Source of the DNA: an uncultured Verrucomicrobiae bacterium
Lineage (GTDB): Bacteria; Verrucomicrobiota; Verrucomicrobiia; Chthoniobacterales; UBA10450
NCBI GenBank assembly: GCA_963815455.1
Contig: CAWFGO010000001.1
Span: 800,001 to 864,000, forward strand
Direction of reading: 5' to 3'
Length of the DNA stretch: 64,000 bases
Made by a program: the position numbers. This document shows, piece after piece, positions 38,001-44,000 of the stretch; position 1 is the first letter of the stretch, and each line of letters opens with the position of its first letter.

Positions 38001-41000
38001 ATGCGCGCATCTCGGCGAATAAGCTCAGGCTCTCGTTGCTGGCCAGACTGTCCGTGCCGAGGCAGATGTTGAATCCGAGCGTACGAAACTTTCCGTATTT
38101 AAACGGGGAATGCCCAAAATACTCGTGACTACGCGGGCAATGAACGATGTGGGGCTGCGCTTTCGGCCGGAGCAGCACCTCCAAGTCGTCCATGCCGACT
38201 TCATTCAAGTGAACGAGCAGCCAGCGCTCGTCCAGCTCGCAGAATTCCGCGACTTGCTCCACCGGCGTGACACGATGCAAATCCGAATGATTACGACCGA
38301 GCTGAGAAAGAAAATCGAAGAGCGGGCCCCGAGATTCGCGAAACATCGCCGCTTCCTCGCGCGATTCCGCCAGATGCGTGGTCAACAAGATGTTATCGCG
38401 CCGCGCGATTTCCTGGCACCGCCGATACAAGTCCCGCGAAGCAGTGAATGGCGCGTGCGGTCCGAGTCCCCAGTTTGCTGCGCCATGAATTGATTCGACG
38501 GCCAGATCGACAATCTCATTTGCCCGCTGCGGCGAACGCACATCGATCAACTCGGCAAACCACCATGTCCGGATCGGCGGCCTGATTTGCGAAACCAACT
38601 CGGGAAACGCTGTCAGATTCGCGATCGTCGTGGTTCCATACTTCTTCGCCTCGGCAAAACCTTCCTCGATCGAGGCGACGTAATCCCGCGGCGAAAGTTT
38701 TTCCTTTTCCGTAATGATCGCGCGAATCCAATCGGCAAAGGATTCTTGCCGCGGAATCCTGCCGCGCAAGCAAGTGTAGTCGAGGTGGCAATGGGCGTTG
38801 ATCAGCCCGGGCAAGAGCGCGCGCTCGCCAAGATCGACAACGTCGCCGGCATTGCGCGCCCTGATTTCATGGAAGCCGCCAACATCGACAATCCGATCCC
38901 CGTTGATCGCGACCGCGCCGTTTCCGATTGGTGGCCCATCCATTGTGACAACAACCCGCGCCCGGAGAATCATGCTACTCGCCGCCTTTCACAGCCCGTC
39001 TGCACTCGGCCACGAGCAAATTGCACGCTTCCTGACAAAGCAGCGGAATTGTTCGCCCGCCCTGGCCGGCCTGATCGTAAGTCGAATCGAACTTTTCTTT
39101 TGGCAACTCTAACGATGCCGGCGCCCCGGTCCGATCGCGTTTCCACAAAATTGTTCGCAAACAACCGCCTTCGGACCGGCAAAAATTCCCGGCCACGCCG
39201 TCGATCTGGGCATCGGAAATCTTGGCCGCAACGCGATACATCCCCGATTGTCGATCCAACGTTTCGCGCAGCGCCGTGGTGGCAAGGCGATTTTCCTTCC
39301 ATGCAGCGAAGACAGCGAGTCTGCCCGGATAAAAATAATCCAGGGCGCGCCGCGCTTCGTTAAGATCGACAACCTCCAGTCGCCAGCCGTGCCGCAAATT
39401 GGGCGCGGTCTTTAGCGGACGATAATTTCCCGCGTCGTCATATTTCGCAATTTCTATAGCGTCCTCTGCGTTTCGAAACGTTCTTAGACCGCCTCGCCCT
39501 TCGTCGTCGCGGTGTGAAAGCACGCAACCGCCAGCAGCGGTTCTTGTAAGGAGAATCTGTCCGAAACAAATAGGATCGGCGAGCGCGGCTTCGAGGATTC
39601 GCGCGACAGAATCCGGCATGGCCGCGCCCGGTGTTAGTGCAGGCAATGCGCGATCAAACCACCCGCGCGCTCGAGAAATTGTCGATCTTCCTGGCCGAAA
39701 GCGTTCAACGTTTCGCTCTCGGCATCGATCATCCCAACGATGCGGTGGTGATCGTTCGTCATCGGCACGATGATCTCGGAGCGAGTGGTGTGAAAGGTGG
39801 GCAGGTAGCGGGGGTCGTTCTGCACGTCGCCGACGATAACCGGCTTACCCGATTCCAGCACGGCCGAGCACAGCCCCTGGGTAATGGGAAACCGTGGATA
39901 GGCCGGCGGTTCGTCCCCCGTGCCGGCCATGATCACGAAGTCCTCCTTCACAATCTTATAAACGCCGACCCAGCGATAGCCGCGTGCGGCGCGAATCATC
40001 TCCACCAATTGCTTCATGCGCTTCTTGGTACACCCGCCAGCCAGGGCAAATGCCCCTATCTCTTGTAGCTGCTTGCAGGTCGTGTCTTTCATTCGCGGGA
40101 GAGCAATCTCGTGCAAAAGAAAACAAGCGCGAGCACGATTTCAACCCCTACCTCAAGATTTCCCGGCCTGGTCGATAATGATGTCGGCGAAGCCCGGGTC
40201 GGTGCCAATGGCGCTGGCGTAAAACAGGGCACGGTCGTCGATTTTGTAGGGGTTCCTACCGAAGACTGAGCCGTTGCCGTCATCCCGAGCGGAGTCGAGG
40301 GATCCCGGGGAATTACTTAGAAGCTTCGCACCGGGATCCTTCGACCCCGAAAGCTTTCGGGGCTCAGGATGACTGGAAATTCCGAGCAGCTCTGGAATGT
40401 CGTCATAACTGTGAAGCCCGTCCGAGATAAAGAATGGGACCACCACCACGTTCGGCGTTTGCGTCAGTTTTCTCCAATCGGAAACGAGCGGCGCCTCTTC
40501 CATATAAACATTGAGCACCTCAGCGTATTTTCCGATGACCCGGATCTTTTCTGCCTCGCGCTTCGCCGCAGCCGCGCTGTTCTCATTCAAGTCGGTGCCG
40601 TGCGCGACAATCAGCAAACTGGTCATGGCAGGATCGACATCGGGCGCGACGTCGTGCGCCCGTTGCAGCAGCAAATCGGTCATCGACGGGTGATTCCCAA
40701 CCGGCTCGCAATATTTCCAAACTTGTCCGGTCGTCCGTCTCGTGATCGGGCCATCGAGTTCGAGTTCACGGGGAATCACCGTCTGCGTGAAATACCCTTC
40801 GCTAATGAAATTGGGAACGACGTAAACCTTGCGAATCAATTCCGGATCGAACAGGAAAATTGCGTCGCGCAAACTCGGCTCCTCTTTCCAAAAAGCGCAG
40901 CCAACATCGACAAAAACCTTCCGGCGCCGAATTTCGGCTGCTTGCGCCAGCGTCGGCGCGCTCGAATCGGGATTCACCGTCGAACCGTGGCCTACGATAA

Positions 41001-44000
41001 GAAGAGCGGAGTCCGGCTTCACTCAGAAAACGTCCAACGCCCAACGCACAACGTCCAACGCTCAATTTCTATGGACGATCCAATCGCGGTCATCCCGAGC
41101 GCTGTCGAGGGATCCCGTCGGTTCGCTCAAGAAGATGGGGTGCGCACCGGACAGAGCGGTAATACGGTTTTGCCGTACAATTCGTTGAGGACCTGGGCGA
41201 GGCCGGTGTAAATGGCGGAAAAGCCGCACAAGATTCCTTCCCAGCCGGTGAAATGTTTAAAGCCTGGGCTTGCGCCGGTGTAATCGCCGTAAGCGAGCAG
41301 GAAAAAAAGAACCGTCAGAGTGAAGAAGACGACCTGGAGGGCGCGGTTGAGCCGCAGGGTCCCGATAAACATGACCGCGGTGAACAGTCCCCACATGGCG
41401 AGATATGCAGCCATGGCGGTGTCGTTAGACGCCGTGCCCCAGCCAAGTTTCGGCAAAACGATCAGCGCGACGAGCGAGAGCCAAAACAAGCCGTAGGAAG
41501 TAAAAGCAGTGGTGGCAAAGGTGTTGCCCTTTTTCCATTCCATGATGCCGGCAATGACCTGGGCGATGCCGCCATAACAAATGCCCATCGCCAGAATCAT
41601 GCTGTTGAGCTCGTAAAAACCGGCATTGTGCAAGTTAAGCAAAACGGTGGTCATACCGAAACCGAGCAGGCCGAGCGGGGCAGGATTGCCGGTCGCATCC
41701 TTGATTTGAGTAAGGGGTTCGTTCATGGCGGCAGTGTGTTGAGAAAAACTTTGGAAACGCAATCACAAATCGGCTGGCCGGGGTCGGCGACCCCGGCTAC
41801 AGATTACGCGTGCTCAATTACATTTGGCTCGCGCTGGTCTTGCTGGCAGTGGCGATTGGCGGCTGGAACGACCGATTCAAGGAGGTCACCGACGGAGCAT
41901 TTGATGGCGCGAAAACGGCGGTGACGATCGCCCTCGGGTTGATCGGGATCATGGCGTTGTGGCTGGGGGTGATGCGCCTGGCCGAGCGCGCCGGCCTGGT
42001 GCAACGGATCGCGCGCGGATTACGCCCCGTAATGCGCCGGCTTTTTCCCGATGTCCCGCCGGCGCACCCAGCCATGGGATCAATGCTCATGAACATGGCC
42101 GCGAACATGCTCGGCCTCGGCAATGCCGCCACTCCGCTCGGGTTGCGCGCGATGCGCGACCTGGAAACACTCAATCCGCGCCCCGGGGTCGCGACCAACG
42201 CGATGTGCACGTTTCTGGCAATCAACACCAGCTCCGTGCAATTGATTCCGGCCACGGCCATTGCCATTCTGGCCGCGGCAGGATCGACAAGGCCGACCGC
42301 GATTGTCGGCACCGCGTTGCTGGCAACGCTTTGCGCGGCGAGCGTGGCTGTTATTTCGGTTAAGCTGCTGGAGAAACTACCGATGTTTCGGCTATCGGAG
42401 CCTCGCACGAATGCCCACATCGAAACGAACAGCAAGGAGGCCGGGATCAACGAGCCCGGCTGCAAGATCGACGAGCCCCCGAAGCGACTGTCGATCCTCG
42501 GTTTGATCGCGCTGATCGCACTCTTCTTTCTCTTTATCGCGATTTTCCTGCGAATGGTGACGCCGAATCTTTTCGGTCTGCCGTTGTCACCCGAAGGGGC
42601 GACTCAGAACATCTTCGTTCGCAGCGTCAACGCATTGTCGATCCTGGCGATCCCGTTTCTCCTCAGTTTTTTTCCGCTGTACGCGACGGCGCGCGGCGTA
42701 AAGGTTTACGAGGAATTTGTCGAGGGCGCGAAAGAGGGCTTCGGAGTGATCCTGAAAATCATTCCGTTTCTGGTCACGATGCTGGTGGCGATCGGGATGT
42801 TCAAAGGCGCCGGTGGGATCGATCTGCTTAGCCGGGCGCTGTCGCCGATCCTGACGCCTTTGCATTTTCCGACCGATCTCCTCCCGTTGGCTTTGATGCG
42901 GCCTTTGAGTGGAAGCGCGACGCTGGCGCTTCTAACCGACATCGTTCATCGTCTCGGGCCGGATAACATCGTGAGTCTGACCGCGGCGACGATCTACGGC
43001 AGCACCGAGACGACCTTTTACGTGGCGGCGGTTTATTTCGGCGCAGTGGGTGTGAAGCAGACGCGTCATGCGATCCCAGCCGGGTTGCTGGCCGATCTCA
43101 CCGGTGTCGTTGCGTCGGTGATCGTTTGCCGGGCTGTTCTGGGCTGAACGAGGGGTTCTAGGGGATAATCGGGCCGTATTAAAATTTTTGCCTCGCCATC
43201 CGGCGAGCGGTTTCTCTATCGTCCATCTTTTCGCAATGATTCATCGCGACTACCTGATTATTGGCAGCGGCATTGGCGGCTTAAGCGCCTGCGAAGGAAT
43301 TCGGCGCCATGACAAGCGCGGTAGCATCACGCTGGTGGGCGCCGAGGCTTTTCATCCCTACAAGCGCTGGATTTTATCAAAGAGTTTTTTGCGCGAGAAA
43401 GTCGCGCCGGTCAAAAAGCTAAATGTTGCCGATCCCAGCTGGTACAAATCGCGCAAGATCGAGACCCGGCTCGGCACGATGGTGACCCAGTTCAATATTG
43501 AGCGCCGCCTGGCTGTGCTCGGCAACGGCGAAAGCATAGAGTTCAAGAAAGCCTGTTTGGCCATGGGGAGCAGACCGGTGCGGCCGCCTGTCGCCGGCGT
43601 CGGCCTGGGCAACGTGATTTACCTGCGCACCATGCGCGATGCCCTCGCATTAAGGGAAATGGCCGACGTGGAAAAAACCGTCGTGGTTGTCGGCGGCGGA
43701 TTGCTCGCCTGCGAGACGGCGGCGAGCCTTCGGCGCATGAAAATGAAGGTGAGCATGATGCACCGCAATTCTGCTCTGCTTAACCGCTATGTGGACCCCG
43801 AAACGGGGACCTGGTTGACCGAGTATTTCGCGAAGCACGGAGTAACGCTGTTAATGGGCGAGAGTCTCAATGGTTTTGAAGGCAAGACTGTGCTTCGCAA
43901 CATTCAAACGAAGAGTGGCAACCGGGTCCCGGCGGGACTGGCGGTGGTGGCCTGCGGAGGCGAGCCGAATCTCGACCTGGTGCGTGGCACTCCTCTTTCG

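What a model noticed while it worked through the whole genome (the two positions that open the first line are those of the whole stretch)
38975..41022. Heme route through siroheme and AhbAB to ChdC that lacks SirC, AhbC, AhbD, HemE and HemH; DR2241 Fe-S protein as the can [...]
This cytochrome-rich aerobe has HemA-D, a UroM-HemD fusion (g02000), CbiX (g00879), a fused AhbAB (C2:471133-472178, frameshifted in the assembly) and ChdC (g02420), but no HemE, HemH, AhbC, AhbD or SirC and no siroheme-using reductase. That points to a hybrid siroheme-to-coproheme-to-ChdC route with two unfilled steps. The DR2241-family 4Fe-4S protein g00877, tied to cbiX, is the candidate for one of them, most likely precorrin-2 oxidation.
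Evidence so far: Gene census in calls 88, 92, 108. HemE and HemH each in 1 of 17 family genomes; no AhbC-level hit in 17; no SirC/CysG-N in 5 of 5 tested; no NIR_SIR here. Order sample of 33: DR2241 in 29, AhbC-like in 9, HemE in 5; 16 of the 19 with neither AhbC nor HemE have DR2241. A 0.9-Mb relative (G045) keeps AhbAB, CbiX, ChdC and DR2241 with no AhbC candidate. cbiX and DR2241 are adjacent in G334 and G293 and the only PDB match is the 474-aa Deinococcus protein 2jh3; D. radiodurans has a siroheme enzyme but no SirC hit in the controls. Searches 93, 98, 114, 115 found no description of this route.
(Added by a program. Inside this text positions count along the whole contig: contig position 800,001 is position 1 of the stretch shown here. 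"Call 12" and the like, gene names such as g00115 and contig names such as C1 are that model's own, and its searches are not shown. The text may have been shortened before it was handed on; [...] marks where a part breaks off. The agent that wrote the report below was given it as the finding of a first reader that could run no searches.)

Follow-up and report, generated by a model that had tools for sequence, protein, structure and literature searches.

The report
Air-tolerant heme route through siroheme
This soil bacterium seems to make heme through siroheme without the oxygen-sensitive enzymes that route normally needs; the iron-sulfur protein here most likely helps make siroheme itself, so one step still has no known enzyme.

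Summary
The gene census holds. This Chthoniobacterales genome (90% complete) has HemA-D, UroM-HemD, CbiX, AhbAB (frameshifted, like 60 of 360 genes tested), ChdC and heme users. No HemE, HemH, AhbC, AhbD, SirC or siroheme reductase was found. A 0.9-Mb single-contig relative shows the same set.

The DR2241 Fe-S protein is best read as the partner subunit of its CbiX chelatase in siroheme synthesis. In 111 haloarchaea it is present exactly when siroheme is needed (86 of 86 with AhbAB; 12 of 12 versus 0 of 13 by NIR_SIR among the rest). It is fused to CbiX beside cobA and sulfite reductase in Deinococcus.

That argues against an AhbC stand-in.

The real gap is didecarboxysiroheme to coproheme. 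It recurs in 7 of 33 AhbAB-bearing Verrucomicrobiota, 26 of 86 haloarchaea and Sulfolobus acidocaldarius, always with ChdC. It was flagged in print for archaea; I found no report for bacteria. No enzyme was tested.

The parts
40153..41022 (-). cbiX, two-lobed class II chelatase of the PRK02395 subfamily; predicted sirohydrochlorin ferrochelatase. His12 in the N-lobe; His141, Glu175/176, His204 in the C-lobe
   Evidence: the only chelatase found in this genome
40278..40373 (.). REP-like palindromic repeat lying in frame inside cbiX, in a loop that is shorter in relatives
   Evidence: 125 blastn hits genome-wide, 41 copies of the core; alignment
39634..40116 (-). stand-alone GAF protein between cbiX and the DR2241 gene; also there in G048, absent in G081, G039, G093, G111; probably not part of the module
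38975..39619 (-). DR2241-family protein, 214 aa, with four invariant cysteines (147, 153, 195, 199) for a predicted 4Fe-4S cluster and invariant R67, W79, P98, R123, Q124, G126, W159; predicted partner subunit of CbiX
37768..38973 (-). amidohydrolase, best match aminofutalosine deaminase family (below cut-off); follows the DR2241 gene here and in G048 and G114; probably menaquinone synthesis, not heme
   Evidence: MqnC/MqnE-like genes

Best explanation
The organism makes heme b by: ALA -> uroporphyrinogen III (HemA, L, B, C, UroM-HemD) -> precorrin-2 -> sirohydrochlorin (no SirC; met in an unidentified way, as in most of the class) -> siroheme (CbiX with its DR2241 Fe-S partner) -> 12,18-didecarboxysiroheme (fused AhbAB) -> coproheme (no AhbC; unidentified, presumably oxygen-tolerant) -> heme b (ChdC). 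The DR2241 protein is the accessory subunit of a two-part sirohydrochlorin ferrochelatase. It docks on the chelatase N-lobe with its cluster near the conserved W45-R52 loop, and most likely supplies or keeps iron as Fe(II), or holds the enzyme in its working form. Shown: gene presence, co-occurrence, fusion and neighbourhood. Inferred: every activity, and each absence.
For: Haloarchaea, n=111: DR2241 in 86 of 86 genomes with AhbAB; among the 25 without AhbAB, NIR_SIR in 12 of 12 with DR2241 and 0 of 13 without. cbiX directly upstream in 57 of 61 haloarchaeal loci with enough flank. 54 of 59 long homologues are CbiX fusions; none carries an Ahb, ChdC, SirC or UroM domain. The fusion or pair lies beside cobA and a nitrite/sulfite reductase in 3 of 3 Deinococcus plasmid records and in G184, beside cobA in Halorussus. 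SirC kept in 95 of 98 DR2241 holders against 7 of 13 non-holders, so the two look non-redundant. Class members without DR2241 carry a divergent CbiX type (3 of 3 aligned). Complex model CbiX + DR2241: score 0.91, best of 3 controls 0.00, runs agree in at least 75% of contacts, partner pLDDT at least 91; the mark was reached by 116 of 157 solved complexes and 2 of 215 mismatched pairs. Route: AhbAB without AhbC always comes with ChdC (7 of 7 Verrucomicrobiota; 26 of 26 haloarchaea). The 0.9-Mb G114 keeps hemA, L, B, C, uroM-hemD, cbiX, DR2241, ahbAB, chdC and cytochrome oxidase genes with no HemE, HemY, HemH, AhbC, AhbD, SirC or NIR_SIR hit. ChdC keeps the Tyr, Lys, Trp, His and Gln seen in solved Firmicute ChdC (residue roles recalled).
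Against: No activity was measured. The complex pass can come from memory of the solved fusion 2jh3; it shows likeness, not that this copy binds. All bacterial holders examined lack SirC (9 Verrucomicrobiota; D. radiodurans control), as do G177, G206 and G208, which fits a dehydrogenase role. AhbAB has three frame changes in this assembly and no read set holds the stretch closely, so an artefact is inferred from the 60 of 360 rate and from intact relatives. G048, same family, has HemE and HemH beside AhbAB, ChdC and DR2241, so the 10% missing from this bin could hide such a cluster. G039 and G111 were not tested for HemE or HemH. Porphyrin or coproheme uptake was not tested. Kin are not independent, so the perfect tables overstate; quality figures for the haloarchaeal genomes were not displayed.
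Confidence: 0.5

Rival explanations
1. One reading: the DR2241 module oxidises precorrin-2 (or its iron complex) through the Fe-S cluster, so CbiX + DR2241 is an analogue of the CysG N-terminal half or Met8p.
For: Tracks the need for siroheme exactly. cobA + CbiX-DR2241 + reductase clusters without a recognisable sirC in Deinococcus, G177 and G206. Among 98 haloarchaea needing siroheme, 3 lack a SirC hit and none lacks DR2241. Invariant arginines could bind ring carboxylates (inference). The model places a cluster cysteine against the chelatase loop.
Against: SirC co-occurs in 95 of 98 haloarchaea and in the same cluster in G184. 21 class genomes with NIR_SIR and 11 with AhbC/AhbD have neither SirC nor DR2241, so the step can be met otherwise. 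No NAD- or flavin-binding fold.
Confidence: 0.27
2. The DR2241 protein (with CbiX as ring-binding partner) is the oxygen-tolerant stand-in for AhbC and removes the C2 and C7 acetates.
For: In the phylum sample it occurs in exactly the 9 class genomes with AhbAB and full-length ChdC, including 7 of 7 without AhbC, and in none of the 24 other AhbAB genomes, all of which have AhbC. It is in 26 of 26 AhbAB haloarchaea without AhbC.
Against: Kept in 12 haloarchaea without AhbAB, exactly those with a siroheme reductase. In Deinococcus it sits in the sulfate-assimilation cluster and AhbAB does not ring in the D. radiodurans control. S. acidocaldarius has the same gap and no DR2241 (controls). A second, moonlighting role cannot be excluded.
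Confidence: 0.1
3. There is no complete de novo route here: AhbAB is decaying or regulatory, and ChdC finishes coproheme taken up from outside, or hemE/hemY/hemH lie in the missing tenth of the bin.
For: Bin 90% complete; AhbAB frameshifted; G048 has the HemE-HemH cluster; PMC3004389 questioned heme synthesis in archaea lacking both NirJ-like genes.
Against: The 99%-complete single-contig G090 and G114 keep intact AhbAB, CbiX, DR2241 and ChdC with no other siroheme user and no HemE or HemH. Frameshifts also hit hemC and hemL and 60 of 360 genes. In haloarchaea AhbAB and HemH alternate: HemH in 5 of 5 AhbAB-less genomes tested.
Confidence: 0.13

Closest known systems
Siroheme-dependent (Ahb) heme pathway, AhbABCD
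   Same: UroM, a chelatase and AhbAB present; no HemE or HemH
   Different: No AhbC or AhbD radical SAM enzymes, no SirC; ends with ChdC
Haloferax volcanii dual ending (AhbD anaerobic, ChdC/PitA aerobic; PMC5746218, passages read)
   Same: AhbAB, same CbiX subfamily, DR2241 protein and ChdC; no HemE-HemY-HemH route
   Different: H. volcanii has SirC, AhbC and AhbD; its ChdC is fused to an ABM domain
Coproporphyrin-dependent pathway (HemE, HemY, HemH, ChdC)
   Same: Firmicute-type ChdC as the last step
   Different: HemE, HemY and HemH not found; coproheme must come from siroheme
Deinococcus radiodurans DR2241 (PDB 2jh3) and its paralogue in the sulfate cluster
   Same: Same fold (Z 21.7, rmsd 2.2 over 190 residues) and four cysteines
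   Different: Split into two genes here; Deinococcus has HemE and HemH and no AhbAB hit, so there the module serves a reductase
SirA/SirC/SirB, Met8p and CysG siroheme synthases (PMC7242693, passages read)
   Same: Methyltransferase plus class II chelatase
   Different: No NAD-dependent dehydrogenase; an extra Fe-S subunit not part of those described schemes

Membership tests
Ahb pathway | AhbA/AhbB siroheme decarboxylase | tested here: met
   two PF17805 matches, one over cut-off; 55-78% identical in pieces to intact relatives; frameshifted in this assembly
Ahb pathway | AhbC radical SAM deacetylase | tested here: not met
   no TIGR04546 match at 1e-25; best tblastn 43 bits; bin 90% complete
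Ahb pathway | AhbD radical SAM heme synthase | tested here: not met
   best tblastn with the G063 protein 44 bits; no second hit as in AhbCD holders
Ahb pathway | SirC or CysG N-terminal dehydrogenase | tested here: not met
   best 17.8 bits against a cut-off of 62.3; none in the class
Ahb pathway | heme methyls at rings A and B derived from SAM | not testable with these tools
   needs isotope labelling
Coproporphyrin-dependent pathway | ChdC with catalytic residues | tested here: met
   PF06778 166 bits; aligned to solved ChdC
Coproporphyrin-dependent pathway | HemE, HemY, HemH | tested here: not met
   family searches; tblastn
DR2241 family | PF18069 + PF18009 with four cluster cysteines and the 2jh3 fold | tested here: met
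SirC-type precorrin-2 dehydrogenase (for the DR2241 protein) | NAD-binding Rossmann fold | tested here: not met
   its two domains are fully accounted for by the 2jh3 fold; this rules out membership, not an analogous activity
Sirohydrochlorin ferrochelatase (SirB/CbiX/CbiK class II) | His-Glu-His metal site in one lobe | tested here: met
   H141, E175/176, H204 conserved in the subfamily; the match to CbiK numbering is recalled
Sirohydrochlorin ferrochelatase (SirB/CbiX/CbiK class II) | iron rather than cobalt or nickel specificity | not testable with these tools
   inferred from neighbours and from the prediction for HVO_1128 in PMC8305020 supplement

The most novel reading that the evidence does not exclude
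Aerobes from three distant lineages (Verrucomicrobia including a 0.9-Mb symbiont-sized genome, about a quarter of haloarchaea, and S. acidocaldarius) run a fourth heme route: siroheme is turned into coproheme without any radical SAM enzyme. The only parts common to all three are UroM, a chelatase, AhbAB and ChdC, so the boldest reading is that ChdC itself, using peroxide and the substrate's own iron, strips the two acetates and then makes the vinyls. I put about 0.2 on ChdC doing both and the rest on an unrecognised enzyme. Alongside, the DR2241 fold would get its first function, as an Fe-S subunit of siroheme synthesis.
Probability: 0.55. Interest if true: 0.85.

Novelty: new variant of a known kind. 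Interest (0 to 1): 0.68.

Why it matters
[quoted passage not shown] It would explain the missing hemE, hemY and hemH noted for Xiphinematobacter and Chthoniobacter flavus (PMC4607532). It also places a solved but function-less Fe-S fold at a specific step, with an existing E. coli assay and Haloferax genetics to test it.

Tried and rejected
My first reading (DR2241 as AhbC stand-in) fitted the Verrucomicrobiota table perfectly and was dropped. Search for the AhbC stand-in in G114: 651 ORFs shared with this genome; 327 left after subtracting only 1.2 of 2.65 Mb of G078 plus nine short loci and dropping weak or short hits; 108 of these scanned against Pfam, the rest set aside by eye as housekeeping. 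No convincing candidate; ten had no family; a ferredoxin lies divergent to chdC. The subtraction is incomplete, so this is no evidence of absence. ChdC of AhbC-less holders shows no signature of its own: the longer linker is shared with G008, which lacks AhbAB (8 sequences). The protein upstream of chdC in G081 has no homologue here. Fold search found nothing beyond 2jh3; the Atlas returned only the family itself. Rows dropped before counts: G032 (93-aa weak PF17805 hit), seven half-length PF06778 hits, TIGR04546 hits under 165 bits; four haloarchaeal hits of 317-363 bits starting at position 37-39 were not counted as AhbC (one, G226, is among the 26). Source names for cluster members could not be obtained. 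Paper searches found no function for DR2241 and no bacterial description of this route; Dailey et al. 2017 and the 2jh3 paper were not readable, and most subscription papers are not held.
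Full report
The locus. The minus strand carries cbiX (40153-41022), a GAF gene, the DR2241-family gene (38975-39619) and an amidohydrolase. Close homologues are labelled Chthoniobacterales. The DR2241 protein has four invariant cysteines and invariant R67, W79, P98, R123, Q124, G126 and W159 across 66 sequences. 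It folds with pLDDT 96.7 and matches only 2jh3. That the cysteines hold a 4Fe-4S cluster rests on the Pfam description and my recall of the 2jh3 paper.

The census. Present: HemA, L, B, C, UroM-HemD, AhbAB, ChdC, heme a/o synthases, cytochrome oxidase and multiheme cytochromes. Not found: HemE, HemH, SirC, NIR_SIR, AhbC and AhbD. AhbAB is broken by three frame changes, but so are hemC and hemL, and 60 of 360 genes shared with G114 show more than one frame. The gene is one open frame in relatives. An assembly artefact is likely, not shown.

Verrucomicrobiota sample, 121 genomes. DR2241 occurs in 9, AhbAB in 33 after dropping one weak hit, AhbC-level hits in 27 (27), full-length ChdC in 10 (37), SirC in 22, none inside this class (28), NIR_SIR in 58 (54). 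The 9 DR2241 holders all have AhbAB and ChdC; 7 lack AhbC; one of these, G048, also has HemE and HemH. Eleven genomes of one genus (probably Akkermansia, judged by size) have AhbC and AhbD with no ChdC, DR2241 or SirC. Twenty-one class genomes have NIR_SIR with no AhbAB, DR2241 or SirC. So 32 relatives need siroheme without either protein. The three whose chelatase I aligned carry a divergent CbiX type (56, 58, 104), whereas holders carry the PRK02395 type, next to DR2241 in G081, G039, G093 and G111. On this table alone DR2241 looked like the aerobic partner of ChdC, an AhbC stand-in.

What overturned that. In three Deinococcus plasmid records the CbiX-DR2241 fusion lies beside cobA and a nitrite/sulfite reductase in the sulfate-assimilation cluster; D. 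radiodurans rings for HemE and HemH and not for AhbAB or SirC (controls of 10, 28, 53, 71). A Halorussus plasmid has cbiX-DR2241-cobA. In 111 Halobacteria genomes: ChdC 111, SirC 102, DR2241 98, AhbAB 86, AhbC 60. All 86 AhbAB holders have DR2241 (70). Of the 25 without AhbAB, 5 of 5 tested have HemH; the 12 that keep DR2241 all have NIR_SIR and the 13 that lack it have none. DR2241 therefore follows the need for siroheme, whatever its use. Kin are not independent and quality figures were not shown, but the split runs the same way in every genome.

Which siroheme step. cbiX lies directly upstream in 57 of 61 haloarchaeal loci. 54 of 59 long homologues are CbiX fusions; four join the neighbouring amidohydrolase and one a kinase, none a heme-pathway enzyme. 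A complex model of the window's two proteins scores 0.91 against a best control of 0.00 (runs agree in at least 75% of contacts, partner pLDDT at least 91; mark reached by 116 of 157 solved and 2 of 215 mismatched pairs); it may pass from memory of 2jh3 (115). It sets CbiX residues 45-63 against Y97-P98 and residues 196-201 near a cluster cysteine. SirC is kept in 95 of 98 holders and 7 of 13 non-holders, and in G184 sirC, the reductase, the fusion and cobA form one cluster (74). The two proteins look non-redundant, which favours a role in iron insertion. Against this, every bacterial holder examined lacks SirC, and so do G177, G206 and G208, so precorrin-2 oxidation stays a live rival.

The gap that remains. 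AhbAB without AhbC appears in 7 Verrucomicrobiota and 26 haloarchaea, always with ChdC, and in the S. acidocaldarius control, which also lacks DR2241, HemE and HemH (controls of 10, 17, 18, 27, 53, 71). PMC3004389 (passages and part of Table 1) lists that species as heme-positive without either NirJ-like gene. PMC8305020 (passages; supplement part 8 whole and search hits) counts ahbC in 107 of 166 haloarchaea and calls heme synthesis without it unresolved. PMC5746218 (passages) shows ChdC needed in air and AhbD without air, and leaves room for an unknown coproheme source. PMC3942049 (passages) found no coproheme from CysG + AhbAB + AhbD without AhbC, so the step did not run by itself in that assay. 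G114, a single 917-kb contig of the size reported for Xiphinematobacter (PMC4607532, passages; the identification is my inference), keeps the whole set and cytochrome oxidase with no other siroheme user. My partial search of its genes gave no candidate. PMC7242693, PMC13564367 and PMC1274311 (passages) describe neither this route nor a DR2241 function. Supplements other than that of PMC8305020 were not read and could bear on novelty.

Verdict. DR2241 belongs to siroheme synthesis with CbiX (about 0.85), more likely at iron insertion than at ring oxidation. The surprising part is the AhbC-free step to coproheme, known as a puzzle in archaea and shown here to extend to bacteria. Interest 0.68; new variant of a known kind.

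Noticed in passing
window 40278-40373, and about 41085-41120: REP-like palindromic repeat in frame inside cbiX, with another copy upstream; 125 blastn hits in the genome
   Followed up: partly
G048:C1:218000-222900 (L024): A same-family genome holds hemE, a HemN-like radical SAM gene, hemY and hemH as well as AhbAB, ChdC and DR2241; two routes side by side
   Followed up: partly
family 7 genus 8 genomes, e.g. L022, L023, L036: Eleven probable Akkermansia genomes have adjacent ahbD-ahbC and a divergent CbiX, without SirC; AhbAB found in 10. One search listed no paper on this
   Followed up: partly
class-wide: No SirC/CysG-N hit in any sampled genome of this class, although 27 have a siroheme reductase; in G060 cobA-cbiX lies beside the reductase
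   Followed up: partly
L113 (G128), L114-L117: Haloarchaea without AhbAB have HemH (5 of 5), followed in G128 by a HemY-like gene: a coproporphyrin route in archaea
   Followed up: partly
L148:1906-3092 (G114): A single-cluster ferredoxin lies divergent to chdC; its homologue here is elsewhere
   Followed up: no
L108 and L041-L104: DUF7524 follows the DR2241 gene in 57 of 64 haloarchaeal loci; DUF7523 lies upstream of cbiX in G214 and G208
   Followed up: no
L025, L026 (G005, G081): Two DR2241 holders keep AhbC and AhbD as well as ChdC; in G081 they sit beside NnrS and a copper oxidase-cytochrome c gene
   Followed up: no
window 61883-63124 (-): Pup-ligase family gene (PF03136)
   Followed up: no
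window 16172-19390 (-): Adenylate/guanylate cyclase with AAA and TPR domains, 1073 aa
   Followed up: no
window 45945-48326 (+): Two PilT-like ATPase genes in tandem
   Followed up: no
whole genome: 60 of 360 genes shared with G114 align in more than one frame, so frameshifts in this assembly should not be read as pseudogenes
   Followed up: yes
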